DNA of 64,000 nt from Escherichia coli (GTDB taxonomy: Bacteria > Pseudomonadota > Gammaproteobacteria > Enterobacterales > Enterobacteriaceae). The DNA lies in the NCBI RefSeq assembly GCF_030384885.1, contig NZ_CP128613.1; one strand, written 5' to 3'. The position numbers are program-made. This document shows, piece by piece, positions 44,901 through 50,900 of the stretch (positions within the stretch are counted from its first letter, which is position 1; every line of letters starts with the position of its first letter).

Positions 44901-47900
44901 TTTCAGGCATAAAAAAAGACCTCAGTTGAGGTCTATTTACATACTTTTGGTGCGAAGGCCGCACCGCGATTCCAGACTCAACAATATGAAATCAATGGAC
45001 TTTTAAAAATGCGAAGTTACTTTGTATACTCACATGTATACTCAGTACCATTTCTTAAGAAATCAATTCATTCAATACTACTCATCATCGTCTTCCACTG
45101 GTTCCAGCACATCAAGCGCAACTCTCACCATAGCGATAGAACCAATACGAATGAAAGCATCTTCTCCATCTTCGTCGGTTATCATAAAACGAACCGTGGT
45201 TTCAGGCTCGCAATCCAGCGCGTCAAAAAAAGCATTCAACTGGCCGATATCATCCGTCTCTTCGTTTTGCGGCGCATCTGGCTCAACACTCAGTGGAATC
45301 ACTGGTCCGCCGTTTACCAGCGTGATATGGACATTAAAATAATCGTCTTCGTAGGCATCATCCTCTTCGTCAACGATTGGCCGCAGACCATCAGAAAGGA
45401 ACTGATGAAATACCACTTCACGCATATTTAACGCATAACGATACTCGGAAGAATCAAAAACGAAGAAGCGTTCTATGTTTGGAGTGTTTTTTTCCTGAAA
45501 ATAATAATAAAACCTCCGCTTATCCACTGCTGAAATGGGCAACAGCAAATAGTCCCGCTGCCCCTGTAGCCAAAGTTTTACGGTCCAGAGACCGCTATCC
45601 ATTTCAATGCCGCTTGTGGCTATAGCCTCAAGATCTTCATCAGTTTTACGACGCTTTTTGCGGAAGTCATTTATCAACCGATCGCTTTCCGGGAACACTA
45701 CGTTTAGAGGCTTATCCAGAGCATTACATATTGCCTGTGCGAGCCCCAGCTTTGCAGCAACCTTCCCGGTTTCGATACGCTGAATTTGTTGCTGGCTGGT
45801 GCCGACCATAAACGCCAGCTCGCGCTGGGTGATAGATAGCTGGGTACGGAGCTGTTTGATGTTGTTCTGTAACATGGCATCCATCCTTCAGAAGGAGTAG
45901 AAAGTGCCATTAAAACACAAAATTGAGTATAAACACATAATCGTGTTTATACTCACTAATCAACACCCTTGAACGAAAAGAAAATCTCTTCATCGTTCTT
46001 CTCTAGTATGCCAGAGATCGACTATATAAATGTCATTGTCACGAAGTTCGTAGTGAACCTCATGGTCATCAAATAACACTTTTCGGACTTCCCGAGGTTC
46101 ATACCGAGTCTGCTGTACGCCAATTGCCGGATGTGCTGTAAGACCAGCACAACCAGTAATCAGGCGATCCAAAACGTCATCGGCGTGCTGGCGGCTATAC
46201 TGAAGGGCGAAACGGTAGATACGCTCAAGGTCATCCTGAGCTTTAAGCGTCCAGTAAATTTCCATTAATCAGGATTTCTTTAAGCGATTAGCAAAATCCA
46301 CCATGTCCGAGTGGCTCACCACGCGACCGGCATCCACATCCGCAAGACCGGCCTGGATGCTCTGGTGACGCCGTTCTCTTTCGGCCAGCATACTGGTCAA
46401 CGCTTCCTTAATAATCCAGCTCTTAGAACGATCTAACTCAATTGCCAGATTCTCAACAGCAGCGGCCAATTCAATAGGTATCTGTGCGCTGATGGTTTGT
46501 TTAGTAAGCGAACCCATAGGGATTACCTCGTTTAATAACATTTAATAACTCCTATTAATATTAGCATAAAGGTGCTTATAAAAACATCAATCTCATTTCG
46601 CAGGTAACATCCCCGGAAAGTGCTTCGCCACGATATCATTCATCTTCTCCACCAGATCCAGGCGTTTGAAAGTGATATGCCCACTGCCCTTCTGAAAGTA
46701 GCGAATAGTGAACAACTCATCTTCGAAAATCTGCTGATGCGGATTATCGCGCACAAAATCCATAAACCGGATGGAGACATCATGCCGGTTATCAGGAATG
46801 GTCTTTCCATCCAGCAGGTAGAACATCCGTTCCAGATCGGCAAGCTGATCTCTCCGCCAGCCCCAGTTCAGGCTGTAGCCCCATCTGTCATGCTTCACCA
46901 GATTGTTAACGATAATCTTCTTACCGAAATAACAGGGATTATTGGTTTTGTAATCCCAGCTCAATCCCTTAAATACATTGATAATCCCACGTTCGAAAAC
47001 GTCCTGCTTATTGTGGTGGAGTTGTTCAAAGGTACTCAGGATGTTGGCTTCGCTAATCGCCGGGAGATCGCCCTCCTCCAGGTTCTTTGCCCACTGACTG
47101 CGGGCTTCGGCATCCATCAAGGTCAACATCCCGGACTTCAGCATGAGATCGCGCCAGATGCTGCGATCGATATTGCGGGTGATCACCGGCATGGCTTTAT
47201 CCACCGGCTGCACCAGCCAGCAGTCGAAGGAATGGCCCTGACGCATCGCCCAATGCTCCGCCACATCACCACCGATGCTGGAGGTTAGCCGTGAGATATC
47301 ATCAAGCTTATGGATCAGGATTTCTATCAGACTCAACGCAGCATCACGACCCGTCACGATACGCTCAACACTGGTCGAGCAAATTAGCTCGTTATGATCG
47401 GTTAAGACTTCAGCTTCTGTTTGCATAATCTTTTGTCCGTATAAAAGCAAATGCGCCAGCCATGAACAGCAGGCGCATTATGCAGGGAGTTATGAGGGAA
47501 GTAATTTTGGCGATGTAAATCGGGAAGGAGACTCGCAGATTCACCGTGCCGTGGTGTTATGGCAGCGACGCAGCAGACCTGTAGCCTGCCGCGCCCGCAA
47601 AATATCGACCGCACGAAGATAAGGCGTCTGTTCCCGCCAGCTAAATCCTTTCCTGTCGATACGGATCAATTCGTACTTCTCCACCAGAAAATTGATGGCA
47701 TCAACCAGAGTGATCCCGGCGTCTATGTGTTCCTGAATCACCTTTTCATTGTTGAATGGTGTGTCATTAAGGTTCAGTCCGTAGTGCTGCTCCAGCAGGC
47801 GGGCCAGTAATGTTTGCCAGACCACGACGGGCGACAGATATGACGTCGTCGCCCGCAGCGTCGTTGCAGGAATAATTTTCATAACGATGTTCCGTATTAA

Positions 47901-50900
47901 GGAGGTTAAAACTCAGCGTTGAGTGGGATAAATAGCGATATAGACGTAACCACAGGAACCCAGCGTATCGGCTTCGCAGGTTAGTCCTTTGGCGTATAGC
48001 GTGACGGTACGTTGTTGGCAGGGGGAGAGTTCACCGTCAGCCAGTTTCAGCTCCAGTTGTTTCATCAACACCGGAAAAGCCTGGTCGATATGCAGCAGAT
48101 CCGGGGAGCTGAATTTCCCGGTAATTGCGGCCCGATCAGCCAGGTAATGCAGGTTATGTCTTTCCTGTACCAGTCGAGCAGTGAAGCGTGGTGTTACGGT
48201 ACAGGGAAGCCCCCATTCTTGTTGCATGACCTTGTCCTTTTGCAGCATTACAGCCAGCCCCGTTCGGCAAAAGAGAGGACATCCCCCGCCCCAATAATGA
48301 AATGATCCAGCACCCTCACTTTCACCAAATCCAGTGTCTTAACAATATTCGTTGTAATAAGTCTGTCGGCCCGACTGGGTTCCCTATGAGGTTGTCACGC
48401 ACACCACAGAATTCCTGCGCGAAGGCATCAAACGGGAGAAATTAAGCGACGCACAAATCCGCGAACTGGAAGAACAAGGCATAGATCCCAATACGCTGGA
48501 GTTTGATGGTAAGGCGCTGGATGAGGCGATCTACAACAAAGACACCAACCGCTATATCCTGCGTAACCTGATGGAAAATGGCCTGAAAGATCGGGACGGC
48601 CAGTTGCCTGGTAAAACCATCATTTTCGCCCGTAACCACAAACACGCGCTGCTGTTGAATGAATTGTTCGACGATATGTACCCGGAAGGGATTGATGCTG
48701 GCGTTGATTTTAAAGATCGCACGCAGGCGGCGTTTGTTGTACCAAAAGAAGATATTGCTGCGCAGAAATACGACCTCTCTATTAATCGTTATAAAGAAGT
48801 GGTGTATCAGGCTGAGGAGTATGAAGATCCGAAAGTGATACTGAAGCGGTTAAAAGATCTGGAAAATGAGATTCTGGCGGATCTGAATGAGCTGGAGGGA
48901 ATGCTGTGAGTTGGCCGTTAGGAAAAGTTTCCGATATTGCTGCTGTTATATCCGGTTTTGCTTTTAAAAGCGAATGGTTTGGTACAGGAGACGCAAAGGT
49001 TATCCGAATTGGCGATCTTAAGAACGGAAAAATCGATCTTAGTGATGCAATGATCTTTGATCATAAAACTAATAAAGTTCGCGAACAATTTAGAATCAAA
49101 AGCGGCGATATTTTAATGGCTCTTTCTGGCGCAACTGTTGGGAAGATCGCAGTTGCTGATGCTGAAGCTGAAGGTGCATATCTTAATCAACGAGTAGCAG
49201 TGATTCGAGGGCGAAATCATGAAAATGCAGAATATTTAAAATACGTATTTTCAGGACACCCTCTCCAAAAACTACTCCTAAATGCAGGTGGTGCGGCACA
49301 GCCAAATCTTAGCTCTAAAGACTTGGCAGAGATGGAAATACCTATTCCCCCTCTTACCGAACAAAAAAGAATCTCAACCATACTTGATAAAGTAAATGGC
49401 ATACGTCAAAAGCGCGAGCAAGCCATAAAGCTGGCTGATAATTTTTTGCATACCATTTTTCATGAGATGTTTGGCGATCCTGTTAAAAACCCGAAGGGAT
49501 GGGATGTCGCCTCTTTATTAGAATATGGTTCATTCAAAAATGGAATGAATTTTTCAAAAGGTGAATTGGGATCTGCTTTGAAGTGCCTAGGAGTTGGTGA
49601 TTTCAAATCACTGGCAACGATTACCTGTATGGACAATATCGGTGAAATTGAATTAAATACTCTTCCTTCGGATGATTATCTTTTGAAAGATGGTGATATT
49701 GTCTTTGTCCGTTCTAATGGTAATAAAGCCTTGGTCGGAAGATGTCTTACTATTTATCCAAACAAAGAGAAAGTCACATTTAGTGGGTTTTGCATTCGAT
49801 ACAGAATAAAAAATCCTGCAATCACGCCAGAATATCTCAACTTCCTTTTCCGTACACCGTCAATGAAACAGCAAATGTTGAGCGGGGGCCAAGGGGCTAA
49901 TATTCAGAATATTAGCCAAGGTACCTTATCTGCACTCAGGATACCTGTACCTCCATTGGATAAACAACTTGCTTTTGCCAGATTGGTTGATTTCCATGCA
50001 TCTATTGTGAAAAAACAATATGATAAAATGGCTGAATCCGAAAAACTCTTCAATGCCTTGACTGGTGATTTTTTCACATTTAATGAGTGATGGTTTATAG
50101 GATAACTCATTCATTACAAAATTTATTAAATACATAGAGGGGCAAATGGGTACATATATCTCAGATAAAACAGAAACATGTTTTGATGAATATTCTTTAA
50201 TCGAAAAAGTCGGGGATGGCTATAAGATTAGTGTGTACTCATTTAAGCTTCATACAGGAAATCCTTACCAGCCACATATATCAGAAAGTTATAGTGGTGA
50301 TATTTTTATTAGCTATTTGTACTATGGAAATGATTCTTATTACGAGCGCAGACGTCAGGAATACAGAAAATATTTATCATTAAAAGAAATCCACCTTGCT
50401 ATTCTAAAGATGTTTCCAGATGAGCGAAGAATTGCGATAGGTATAAAAAAAGAAAATTACAGTACCGTAAAAATAACTTATGCGGCAGCGGATGAAGTAT
50501 ATCTTCTTGATATTAAAAATAAAGAGACATTATTGTTAGATAATATATTATGTCTATATGATGTTATTTATAAGCATGAAAGCAACATTAATAAATTGGA
50601 AGGCGAGTTAGCAAGTAGTAAAAAAGAACTCCAAAGTATGAAGATAGATATAAAAGAAAAATGTAAATCTATTCTTGATATTGTTGATTAGTAAAAACAA
50701 CCCCAGTGGCAATAATTCATTGATATGGAACTCTTCTAATGGCTGAAATATTTTCTTTGCGTTATGATGTTTTGTTCTACAGCCTTGAGATTTCACGTCA
50801 GGAAAGTAACCATGCCTTTAGATTTAAGTAATACTTTAGTTATTGGCATTAGCGCAACTGCGCTTTTTGACATGAGCGAATCGGATCGCATGTTTCGGGA

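What the first reader, a model, noticed from the sequence alone, without database searches (positions are those of the whole stretch)
45990..48248. Two toxin-antitoxin modules in series inside the island (CbeA/CbtA-like and RHH/ParE-like) with an intervening unknown gene
The CbeA-like antitoxin (47913-48248) and CbtA-like toxin (47541-47882), an unknown 285-aa protein (46593-47450), then an RHH antitoxin (46269-46517) and ParE/RelE-like toxin (45990-46265) all lie on the minus strand. Such modules stabilise islands and can act in abortive infection; their stacking beside the R-M remnant marks this as a defence or addiction hotspot.
Basis: partly seen in the sequence, partly recalled or inferred. 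Interest (0 to 1): 0.3.

Follow-up and report, generated by a model that had tools for sequence, protein, structure and literature searches.

The report
Two ordinary toxin-antitoxin pairs flanking DUF4942
This stretch of an E. coli genomic island carries two well-known, already-annotated toxin-antitoxin gene pairs (CbeA/CbtA and a ParD-like/ParE pair) on either side of a conserved mobile-element gene of unknown function (DUF4942), so it is ordinary; only DUF4942 is unexplained.

Summary
Pfam gives CbeA 161 bits, CbtA 188, DUF4942 236, RHH 30 and ParE 57, all above cut-off. Median dN/dS is 0.05-0.22. RefSeq annotates the same block identically in 79 of 5,426 complete E. coli genomes. The window is E. 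coli, 99.98% identical to strain 2013C-4282. The genes lie at the distal end of a leuX-integrated island bounded by a 130-bp direct repeat.

New points:
- CbeA abuts the R-M remnant only because of two strain-specific deletions (8.9 and 2.9 kb, 6-7 bp microhomology). These removed radC and the upstream genes that are probably co-transcribed with the TA pair.
- In 80 related Enterobacterales loci, DUF4942 follows CbtA in 69 of 76. RHH-ParE follows it in only 12 of 68, so RHH-ParE is an optional cassette.
- A conserved, covarying terminator-like hairpin separates cbtA from DUF4942.
- DUF4942 has a confident predicted fold (pLDDT 91) with no PDB match. Elsewhere it forms the N-terminal domain of phage and plasmid N6-adenine methyltransferases, and it is not needed for the K-12 CbtA/CbeA pair.
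- This ParE carries His at a Tyr conserved in at least 90% of relatives.

No evidence here supports an abortive-infection role. Interest is low.

The parts
47913..48248 (-). cbeA/yeeU-family type IV antitoxin (111 aa). Its ATG overlaps the radC stop codon (TAATG).
   Evidence: PF06154 at 161.5 bits. 69% identical to K-12 CbeA. Matches PDB 2INW and 2H28 at E = 3e-48 and 1e-45. Sequence read.
47541..47882 (-). cbtA/yeeV-family toxin (113 aa), 30 nt downstream of cbeA.
   Evidence: PF06755 at 187.6 bits over profile positions 1-110 of 112. 58% identical to K-12 CbtA. F65 is retained; position 15 is Tyr (PMC5624674).
47450..47479 (-). Conserved GC-rich hairpin followed by UUUGCUUUUAU, about 20 nt upstream of the DUF4942 ATG. 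It looks like an intrinsic terminator or attenuator.
   Evidence: Folding energy -20.4 kcal/mol, z = -3.5. Present in 53 of 54 related loci. Compensatory changes in 7 of 8 pairs; 91.9% of cells paired against 34-53% in slid controls; 0 of 500 shuffles reach the score. No Rfam family.
46593..47426 (-). DUF4942 protein (277 aa from the ATG; the maximal ORF reaches 47450). Function unknown.
   Evidence: PF13708 at 236 bits. 2,211 clusters at 50% identity. AF2 model with pLDDT 91. No PDB fold match. Fused to N6-adenine methyltransferases in other members.
46518..46592 (-). AT-rich intergenic region upstream of the RHH gene. Candidate promoter (TTGATG-16 nt-TATGCT) and an imperfect palindrome at 46532-46558.
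   Evidence: Read from the sequence. The inverted repeat is 77% complementary and no better than shuffles as a fold. Candidate only.
46269..46517 (-). Ribbon-helix-helix (CopG/ParD-like) antitoxin, 82 aa (alternative start at 46541 gives 90 aa).
   Evidence: PF01402 at 30 bits. PDB 6XRW_B at 8e-5, 6IYA/7ETR_A (CopASO) at 2e-3 to 5e-3, 5CEG_A at 0.018.
45990..46265 (-). ParE-family toxin (91 aa), 3 nt after the RHH stop codon. Carries His68 where relatives have Tyr.
   Evidence: PF05016 at 56.6 bits. Profile hits to 5CEG_B at 1.2e-3, 6XRW_A at 0.01, 7ETR_C at 0.018 and 5CW7_B at 0.023. AF2 model with pLDDT 94.5 and beta-alpha-alpha-beta-beta-beta topology. Y68H seen.
45924..45955 (-). Perfect 13-bp hairpin followed by a U-tract. 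Terminator-like, downstream of parE.
   Evidence: Folding energy -17.2 kcal/mol, z = -4.15.
45078..45884 (-). HTH_3 (Xre-type) protein with an acidic C-terminal domain of unknown type. Last gene of the island. RefSeq starts it at 45875.
   Evidence: PF01381 at 50.7 bits. C-terminal 99 aa has pI 4.05. Follows DUF4942 in 13 of 68 loci, in 4 of them with no RHH or ParE in between.
48249..48383 (-). 3' remnant of radC. It is the left edge of deletion 1.
   Evidence: The window matches L001 up to 48383, inside the radC gene annotated in L001 at 15249-15722.
48378..48684 (+). 307-bp internal fragment of hsdR, lying between the two deletion junctions.
   Evidence: 99.7% identical to L001 24260-24566, inside the DEAD/DEAH helicase gene. 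The overlap at the first junction is 6 bp.
48678..48909 (+). 3' tail of hsdM, fused in frame to the hsdR fragment (chimeric ORF 48571-48909). An intact hsdS follows at 48906-50090.
   Evidence: Window 48678-63002 is 99.99% identical to L003 from position 1677, inside hsdM at 274-1908.
44834..44961 (.). Distal copy of the 130-bp leuX-proximal direct repeat. It marks the end of the island.
   Evidence: 87% identical to 54300-54429.
54300..54499 (-). tRNA-Leu(CAA) leuX at 54415-54499, with the proximal repeat copy at 54300-54429. This is the island's integration site, next to the integrase at 52946-54292.

Best explanation
The region is the distal end of a roughly 9.6-kb leuX-integrated E. coli genomic island. 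It holds three independent units on the minus strand.

1. A type IV CbeA/CbtA pair. By homology, the toxin blocks FtsZ and MreB polymerisation, and the antitoxin counteracts this by bundling those filaments rather than by binding the toxin.
2. DUF4942, a mobile-element protein of unknown function. It belongs to the same conserved island backbone but is set apart by a conserved terminator-like hairpin.
3. A type II ParD-like RHH/ParE pair with its own AT-rich promoter region and terminator. By homology, the toxin is most likely a gyrase poison, neutralised and transcriptionally autoregulated by the RHH antitoxin.

The most likely role of both pairs is post-segregational stabilisation (addiction) of the island or of its excised circle. 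ParESO/CopASO has this role in the CP4So prophage.

Shown here: family membership, gene organisation, purifying selection, the island boundaries and the deletions. Inferred: toxicity, molecular targets, the stabilising role and expression. In this particular strain the cbeA-cbtA pair has lost its upstream operon partners through a deletion, and ParE carries Y68H, so either module may be weakened.
For: - Pfam hits for all five proteins are above the curated cut-offs.
- CbeA matches the solved YeeU/YfjZ structures. CbtA and CbeA are 58% and 69% identical to the experimentally characterised K-12 pair, and the FtsZ-contact residue F65 is retained (PMC5624674).
- The ParE profile and the RHH sequence match the two chains of the same solved ParD/ParE-type complexes: 5CEG B/A, 6XRW A/B and 7ETR C/A.
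- The ParE AF2 model (pLDDT 94.5) has an alpha-hairpin plus a three-stranded sheet, as described for ParESO (PMC8706911).
- Operon architecture is canonical, with the antitoxin first and gaps of 3 nt and 30 nt.
- Terminator-like hairpins lie after cbtA and after parE.
- dN/dS is 0.05-0.22.
- The block is conserved in 79 E. coli genomes under the same RefSeq product names.
- ParE homologues paired with an RHH gene occur on 1,709 plasmids, 1,070 of them conjugative.
- ParESO/CopASO maintains the excised CP4So element (PMC8706911).
Against: - No expression or toxicity data exist for this locus.
- K-12 CbtA-family loci are weakly transcribed and not autoregulated, their antitoxins can be deleted, and the upstream genes appear to be in the same operon (PMC5371832). 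Here those upstream genes are deleted, and no promoter-like site was found upstream of cbeA.
- ParE has His at a Tyr conserved in at least 90% of relatives.
- PDB matches for ParE are weak (best E = 1.2e-3).
- Not every ParE inhibits gyrase; E. coli O157 ParE2 does not (PMC8706911).
- The island is itself degraded, so there may be little left to stabilise.
Confidence: 0.8

Rival explanations
1. CbeA-CbtA-DUF4942 is a three-gene functional unit. DUF4942 would be a DNA-recognition module related to the N-terminal domain of mobile-element N6-adenine methyltransferases. It would sense or modulate something, such as incoming or unmodified DNA, and couple that to the cytoskeletal toxin.
For: - CbtA lies upstream of DUF4942 on the same strand in 69 of 76 Enterobacterales loci, and within 1.3 kb in 65.
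- DUF4942 is under strong purifying selection, dN/dS 0.08.
- A conserved, covarying hairpin gates read-through from the upstream genes into DUF4942.
- DUF4942 is fused to N6-adenine methyltransferases carrying LEPSAGxG and NPPF motifs, matches phrog_6263 'DNA methyltransferase', and matches a viral protein labelled 'Type I restriction enzyme'.
Against: - The DUF4942 family (2,211 clusters at 50% identity) reaches well beyond the settings where CbtA is found. Distant members sampled on IncP-like plasmid, primase, Tn7-like and phage-like contigs had no CbtA nearby.
- K-12 CP4-44 CbtA/CbeA is fully functional without any DUF4942 (PMC5624674, PMC5371832).
- YeeW or other genes intervene in 12 loci, and the hairpin stays with DUF4942.
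- Adjacency may only reflect a shared island backbone that also includes RadC and DUF932.
Confidence: 0.12
2. In this strain the modules are inactive relics. The cbeA-cbtA pair is transcriptionally orphaned by the 8.9-kb deletion, and ParE is attenuated by Y68H, so the genes persist without doing anything.
For: - The deletion removed radC, DUF932 and everything upstream; radC's stop codon overlaps the cbeA start.
- K-12 data suggest the upstream genes share the operon (PMC5371832).
- No minus-strand promoter-like site lies upstream of cbeA.
- Y68H sits at a Tyr conserved in at least 90% of 52 relatives and in O157 ParE2.
- The adjacent R-M system and the phosphorothioate-dependent restriction gene are also degraded.
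Against: - All five ORFs are intact and identical to those of strain 2013C-4282.
- The RHH-ParE unit keeps its own promoter region and terminator.
- Tyr to His is a fairly conservative change, and the AF2 model is confident across that strand.
- The promoter scan is a crude consensus test.
- The deletion is recent, since the flanks are 99.98% identical, so decay could not yet be visible.
Confidence: 0.3
3. One or both pairs act mainly as anti-phage abortive-infection systems, as part of the leuX defence island.
For: - Defence genes surround the pairs: MkoC/YjhR, PDC-S08, type I R-M and a phosphorothioate-dependent restriction pseudogene. A relative carries a TIR-domain protein.
- TA systems in general can provide abortive infection (general knowledge).
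Against: - None of the five proteins matches any of 5,027 PADLOC models.
- Nothing found here, in the tool results or in the papers read, shows phage defence by CbtA/CbeA or by this ParE subfamily.
- No ParE homologue was found in 50,697 phage records, so there is no sign of phage-encoded counterparts.
Confidence: 0.1

Closest known systems
E. coli K-12 CbtA/CbeA (YeeV/YeeU, CP4-44) and its paralogues YkfI/YafW and YpjF/YfjZ (type IV TA)
   Same: Same Pfam families at full length. 58% and 69% identity. Antitoxin-then-toxin order. F65 is retained. In close relatives the pair follows RadC/YeeS in a CP4-type island. The toxin is 113 aa, against 124 aa for K-12 CbtA.
   Different: In this window the upstream radC, DUF932 and other genes are deleted. 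There is no YeeT or YeeW. Position 15 is Tyr, where CbtA has Arg and YkfI/YpjF have Cys (PMC5624674). DUF4942 follows the toxin, whereas the K-12 CP4-44 locus has none.
ParESO/CopASO of the Shewanella oneidensis CP4So prophage (PDB 7ETR, 6IYA)
   Same: A ParE-fold toxin paired with a CopG-type RHH antitoxin encoded upstream, on a CP4-type integrative element. Both chains are hit by the window's pair. Its published role is to maintain the excised element (PMC8706911).
   Different: Sequence similarity is low (E = 0.018 for the toxin and 2e-3 to 5e-3 for the antitoxin). Equivalence of the essential His91 to the conserved His86 here was not tested. The operator sequence is unrelated.
ParD/ParE of plasmid RK2 and chromosomal ParDE pairs (Mesorhizobium ParD3-ParE3, 5CEG; 6XRW; M. 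tuberculosis ParDE1, 8C24)
   Same: Best PDB profile hits for the toxin, and partner-chain hits for the antitoxin. RHH antitoxin. Homologues on 1,709 plasmids.
   Different: The window's subfamily is a tight Enterobacterales clade found in islands. It is 43-63% identical to the plasmid copies. Gyrase inhibition is untested. This allele carries Y68H.
Phage and plasmid DNA methyltransferases with an N-terminal DUF4942 domain (phrog_6263; P0197, P0204, P0209)
   Same: The DUF4942 domain is homologous over its full length, including the SWDYKTNxP motif.
   Different: The window's protein stops after DUF4942 and has no methyltransferase domain, so it cannot itself be a methyltransferase.

Membership tests
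Type IV TA CbtA/CbeA (YeeV/YeeU) | Toxin matches PF06755 and antitoxin matches PF06154, both above the gathering score and at full length. | tested here: met
   187.6 and 161.5 bits against cut-offs of 25 and 27.
Type IV TA CbtA/CbeA (YeeV/YeeU) | Antitoxin gene immediately upstream of the toxin gene on the same strand. | tested here: met
   cbeA at 47913-48248 and cbtA at 47541-47882, with a 30-nt gap.
Type IV TA CbtA/CbeA (YeeV/YeeU) | Antitoxin has the YeeU fold. | tested here: met
   By sequence: E = 3e-48 to 2INW and 1e-45 to 2H28 over residues 9-110.
Type IV TA CbtA/CbeA (YeeV/YeeU) | FtsZ-interaction residue F65 is conserved (PMC5624674). | tested here: met
   F65 aligns without gaps. 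R15, the MreB determinant in CbtA, is Tyr here, but that position is not conserved among the paralogues (PMC5624674).
Type IV TA CbtA/CbeA (YeeV/YeeU) | Toxin inhibits FtsZ/MreB polymerisation. Antitoxin acts on the targets rather than on the toxin. | not testable with these tools
   Needs expression and cytology.
Type II ParD/ParE | Toxin matches PF05016 (ParE/RelE superfamily) above cut-off. | tested here: met
   56.6 bits against 23, over profile positions 1-88 of 89.
Type II ParD/ParE | ParE fold: an N-terminal alpha-hairpin packed on a three-stranded antiparallel sheet. | tested here: met
   AF2 model with pLDDT 94.5: H6-19, H24-42, E59-64, E67-74, E77-85. The description of the fold is taken from PMC8706911.
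Type II ParD/ParE | Closer to ParE toxins than to RelE-type RNases. | tested here: inconclusive
   Profile hits are all ParE-type entries (5CEG_B, 6XRW_A, 7ETR_C, 5CW7_B, 6X0A, 8C24), and no RelE, YoeB or HigB appears. However, E is only 1e-3 to 0.08. RNase catalytic residues were not mapped.
Type II ParD/ParE | RHH (ParD/CopG) antitoxin encoded just upstream and translationally close. | tested here: met
   PF01402 at 30 bits. 3-nt gap. Matches the partner chains 6XRW_B, 7ETR_A and 5CEG_A.
Type II ParD/ParE | Conserved core residues are intact. | tested here: inconclusive
   All invariant and nearly invariant positions of alignment A6 are kept except Tyr68, which is His here and in strain 2013C-4282 only. 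The effect is unknown.
Type II ParD/ParE | Gyrase poisoning, and autoregulation through an operator palindrome. | not testable with these tools
   The candidate palindrome at 46532-46558 is weak: 77% complementary and no better than shuffles as a fold.
DUF4942 (PF13708) | Matches the Pfam model. The signature SWDYKTNxP and the invariant W91, D197, H250 and N263 are present. | tested here: met
   236 bits. Alignment A1 of 86 sequences.
DNA methyltransferase (as some sources name DUF4942 proteins) | SAM-binding motif I and catalytic motif IV (NPPF/NPPY). | tested here: not met
   The 277-aa protein ends after DUF4942. The motifs occur only in the C-terminal roughly 190 aa of the 460-468-aa fused relatives.
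Known anti-phage defence systems (PADLOC v2) | Any of the five proteins matches a defence-system model. | tested here: not met
   No family at E <= 0.01 for the five proteins. Only the neighbours YjhR (MkoC), the PDC-S08 protein and the HTH protein matched.

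The most novel reading that the evidence does not exclude
DUF4942 is a protein with a confident predicted fold and no solved relative. It is fused to N6-adenine DNA methyltransferases in phages and plasmids. In Enterobacterales islands it sits directly downstream of CbtA in 91% of loci, behind a conserved, covarying attenuator hairpin. On this reading it would be a DNA-recognition or epigenetic-sensing component that works together with the CbeA/CbtA cytoskeletal toxin pair, making a three-gene system for anti-restriction, defence or control of island maintenance.
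Probability: 0.1. Interest if true: 0.55.

Novelty: already known. Interest (0 to 1): 0.15.

Why it matters
As annotated, it matters little. These are standard island-borne addiction modules, and identical or near-identical proteins already have RefSeq accessions and family names.

Three things are of modest use:
1. The corrected anatomy shows that the TA/R-M adjacency is a deletion scar, not a designed stack.
2. There is a natural, near-isogenic pair for experiments: this strain against 2013C-4282. The two differ by a deletion that orphans cbeA-cbtA from its upstream genes, which gives a way to test how type IV TA loci are transcribed.
3. DUF4942 is a large mobile-element family with no function, no structural relative and a link to DNA methyltransferases. 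It is a reasonable target for someone studying anti-restriction or the leading-region genes of integrative elements.

Tried and rejected
- Single-sequence PDB searches for ParE, CbtA and DUF4942 found nothing. A profile of 11 close ParE orthologues gave only E = 0.07. A 52-sequence profile was needed to reach E = 1.2e-3.
- The AFDB50 library was unavailable.
- The DUF4942 profile against PDB sequences found nothing.
- A literature search for DUF4942 returned 4 papers. The one I read (PMC6980539) only lists it in an ORF table, and the other three each mention it once.
- NCBIfam gave no model above its cut-off for any of the five proteins. PADLOC gave none at all.
- The consensus promoter scan found fewer sites than its shuffles and none on the minus strand upstream of cbeA, DUF4942 or the RHH gene. 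The promoters I name are read by eye and are only candidates.
- The palindrome upstream of the RHH gene is no better than chance as a fold.
- Rfam has nothing for the hairpins.
- tblastn with ParE found no phage homologue.
It was repeated with 12 sequences.
- I considered that DUF4942 might be a methyltransferase, as one source names it. I rejected this because the protein has no methyltransferase domain.

Full report
**Observation**

Pfam assigns all of them above curated cut-offs:
- 45990-46265: ParE_toxin, 56.6 bits.
- 46269-46517: RHH_1, 30 bits.
- 46593-47450: DUF4942, 236 bits.
- 47541-47882: CbtA_toxin, 187.6 bits.
- 47913-48248: CbeA_antitoxin, 161.5 bits.

Two small corrections apply. 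The '285-aa' protein is the maximal ORF from a TTG; RefSeq and nearly all homologues use the ATG at 47426, giving 277 aa. The RHH gene has a second plausible start at 46541 with a GGAG Shine-Dalgarno sequence, giving 90 aa.

Pairwise dN/dS against orthologues from other Enterobacterales is 0.05-0.22 for all five genes and for the HTH neighbour. These are maintained coding sequences. The antisense ORFs are incidental.

**Provenance and island anatomy**

The window is E. coli. Positions 33000-48383 and 48678-63002 are 99.98% and 99.99% identical to strain 2013C-4282 (NZ_CP027579.1).

tRNA-Leu(CAA) leuX lies at 54415-54499, with a tyrosine integrase beside it at 52946-54292. A 130-bp segment covering the leuX 3' end and its downstream terminator is repeated, at 87% identity, at 44834-44961. 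That copy lies between the HTH gene and yjhR. The finding therefore sits at the distal end of a roughly 9.6-kb leuX-integrated island.

In 2013C-4282 and SA186, cbeA is preceded by radC (whose stop codon overlaps the cbeA start), DUF932, a hypothetical gene, an inovirus-Gp2-family gene, an HTH gene, a GTPase, a WYL protein, and then a type I R-M system.

The window has two deletions relative to 2013C-4282:
- 8,875 bp, from inside radC to inside hsdR. The junction is at 48378-48383, with a 6-bp overlap.
- 2,945 bp, from hsdR to the last 232 nt of hsdM. The junction is at 48678-48684, with a 7-bp overlap.

A 307-bp hsdR fragment remains between them. None of 5,426 complete E. coli genomes contains this junction. 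So the adjacency of cbeA to the 'R-M remnant' is a recent, strain-specific scar and not an evolved stack.

**CbeA/CbtA**

- CbeA matches the solved YeeU/YfjZ structures at E = 3e-48 to 6.5e-37 and is 69% identical to K-12 CbeA.
- CbtA is 58% identical to K-12 CbtA, with no gaps over 106 residues.
- F65 is retained. Substituting it abolishes FtsZ binding in CbtA, YkfI and YpjF.
- Position 15 is Tyr. It is Arg in CbtA, where it is the MreB determinant, but Cys in both paralogues, so it is not a family-defining residue (PMC5624674).

In K-12, these loci are transcribed at low level and are not autoregulated, and they appear to be co-transcribed with the genes upstream (PMC5371832). Those upstream genes are deleted here, and the crude promoter scan finds nothing upstream of cbeA. 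Whether the pair is still expressed in this strain is an open question that can be tested.

**RHH/ParE**

The order is antitoxin then toxin, with a 3-nt gap. Upstream is an AT-rich 75-nt region with a plausible promoter (TTGATG-16 nt-TATGCT). After parE is a perfect 13-bp hairpin plus U-tract (-17.2 kcal/mol, z = -4.2). This is a canonical type II cassette.

Single-sequence PDB searches failed for the toxin. A 52-sequence profile hits only ParE-type toxins:
- 5CEG_B at 1.2e-3.
- 6XRW_A at 0.01.
- 7ETR_C at 0.018.
- 5CW7_B at 0.023.
- 6X0A.
- 8C24 (ParE1).

The RHH protein independently hits the partner chains of three of those entries: 6XRW_B at 8e-5, 7ETR_A/6IYA at 2e-3 to 5e-3, and 5CEG_A at 0.018.

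An AlphaFold2 model (pLDDT 94.5) has the alpha-hairpin plus three-stranded sheet described for ParE toxins (PMC8706911). PDB 7ETR is ParESO-CopASO of the CP4So prophage, which maintains the excised element (PMC8706911). That is the closest functional precedent.

Homologues at 43-63% identity, each paired with an RHH gene, occur on 1,709 plasmids, 1,070 of them conjugative. None occur in phage records.

One caveat: this allele, and that of 2013C-4282 only, has His68 at the start of strand beta-2. At least 90% of 52 relatives and E. coli O157 ParE2 have Tyr there. This may attenuate the toxin. The effect is unknown.

**How the pieces relate**

I examined 80 Enterobacterales loci found through DUF4942.
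- Of 76 loci with enough upstream sequence, 69 have a CbtA homologue upstream on the same strand, 65 of them within 1.3 kb. 62 have CbeA and 64 have RadC.
- Of 68 loci with enough downstream sequence, only 12 have RHH plus ParE. 13 have the HTH protein, and in 4 of those the HTH gene follows DUF4942 with no RHH or ParE in between.

The backbone is therefore DUF932-RadC-(YeeT)-CbeA-CbtA-(YeeW)-DUF4942-(HTH). RHH-ParE is an optional cassette inserted between DUF4942 and the HTH gene. The 'two modules in series' have different histories.

**A conserved RNA hairpin**

A GC-rich stem-loop lies at 47479-47450 (-20.4 kcal/mol, z = -3.5). It is followed by UUUGCUUUUAU and sits about 20 nt before the DUF4942 ATG.

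- It is present in 53 of 54 related loci.
- Compensatory changes occur in 7 of 8 pairs. 91.9% of cells are paired, against 34-53% when the partner columns are slid. 0 of 500 shuffles reach the covariation score.
- It stays with DUF4942 even when YeeW intervenes.
- It has no Rfam match.

I read it as an intrinsic terminator or attenuator that uncouples DUF4942 from the upstream genes. This is an inference.

**DUF4942**

The family has 2,211 clusters at 50% identity. Invariant residues are W91, D197, H250 and N263, and there is a SWDYKTNxP signature.

The functional clues all point to DNA modification on mobile elements:
- Relatives of 460-468 aa carry a C-terminal domain of about 190 aa with LEPSAGxG and NPPF motifs, the hallmarks of N6-adenine methyltransferases.
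- phrog_6263, 'DNA methyltransferase', matches through its N-terminal half.
- The best viral structural match is a 531-aa protein labelled 'Type I restriction enzyme'.
- Distant stand-alone members sit on several mobile-element contigs: an IncP-like backbone two genes from a C5 methyltransferase, next to a plasmid primase, in a Tn7-like element, and in a phage-like contig about 2 kb from an N6/N4 methyltransferase. None of these has CbtA nearby.

The window's protein has no methyltransferase domain, so it is not itself a methyltransferase. K-12 CP4-44 has no DUF4942, yet its CbtA/CbeA pair is functional, so DUF4942 is not needed for that TA pair.

My best guess, at low confidence, is a DNA-recognition or anti-restriction-type accessory protein of the island backbone. 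A functional tie to CbtA/CbeA is not excluded; I put it at about 0.1.

**Defence or addiction?**

The neighbourhood is rich in defence genes:
- YjhR matches PADLOC MkoC (Mokosh type II) at 1464 bits.
- The 337-aa 5'-nucleotidase matches PDC-S08.
- There is a type I R-M system, now reduced to hsdS.
- There is a phosphorothioate-dependent restriction pseudogene.

None of the five proteins matches a PADLOC model, and nothing found here supports abortive infection. Addiction, meaning stabilisation of the island, is the better-supported role by analogy with ParESO/CopASO and plasmid ParDE. It is inferred, not shown.

**Verdict**

The family calls are correct and already present in RefSeq annotation. 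The hotspot idea is partly right, but the specific 'stacking' argument rests on a deletion scar. Novelty: already known. Interest: low (0.15). The only open thread is DUF4942 and its conserved upstream hairpin.

Noticed in passing
window 48249-48909: Compared with strain 2013C-4282, which is 99.98% identical, there are two deletions (8,875 bp and 2,945 bp) with 6-7 bp of microhomology at the junctions. They leave a radC 3' remnant, a 307-bp hsdR fragment and the hsdM tail fused into a chimeric ORF (48571-48909). hsdS stays intact but is orphaned. None of 5,426 complete E. coli genomes shares the junction.
   Followed up: yes
window 41129-44644 (-): The full-length 1,171-aa YjhR (SF1 helicase plus PLD nuclease domain) matches the PADLOC model MkoC (Mokosh type II) at 1464 bits, end to end. 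It lies just outside the island's distal repeat.
   Followed up: partly
window 50764-51777 (+) and 50146-50691 (+): The 337-aa protein, annotated as a 5'-nucleotidase in the relative, matches the PADLOC candidate defence family PDC-S08 (448 bits). The 181-aa protein beside it, in a stretch of about 33% GC, has no hit in Pfam, NCBIfam or PADLOC.
   Followed up: no
window 52227-52775 (-): This ORF is a fragment of a restriction endonuclease that binds phosphorothioated DNA. The relative annotates the gene as a pseudogene with an internal stop. It also has a weak PADLOC hit to mREase_IV.
   Followed up: no
window 45078-45884 (-): A 268-aa protein with an N-terminal Xre-type HTH and a very acidic C-terminal domain of unknown type (30 Asp/Glu in the last 99 residues, pI 4.05). 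It is the terminal gene of the island and is conserved (dN/dS 0.11). It follows DUF4942 directly in related loci that lack RHH-ParE. It differs from strain 2013C-4282 by one residue (D228V).
   Followed up: partly
window 47450-47479 (-): A conserved, covarying hairpin plus U-tract lies about 20 nt upstream of the DUF4942 start in 53 of 54 related loci. It is not in Rfam. The flanking GCATAAT motif is also conserved and might be a -10 element overlapping the 5' arm of the stem. This was not resolved.
   Followed up: yes
window 46062-46064 (ParE codon 68): ParE has His where at least 90% of 52 relatives, and E. coli O157 ParE2, have Tyr. Among the sequences compared, only strain 2013C-4282 shares this. 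It may be an attenuating substitution.
   Followed up: partly
window 44834-44961 and 54300-54429; L002 11496-11667: A 130-bp direct repeat of the leuX 3' end and terminator bounds the island. In strain SA186 an integrase pseudogene fragment lies just beyond the distal repeat, which suggests a tandem array of islands at leuX.
   Followed up: partly
window 7000-10000, 20000-22000, 34000-38000: Several other stretches of low GC (32-42%) elsewhere in the window suggest further horizontally acquired segments. I did not examine them.
   Followed up: no
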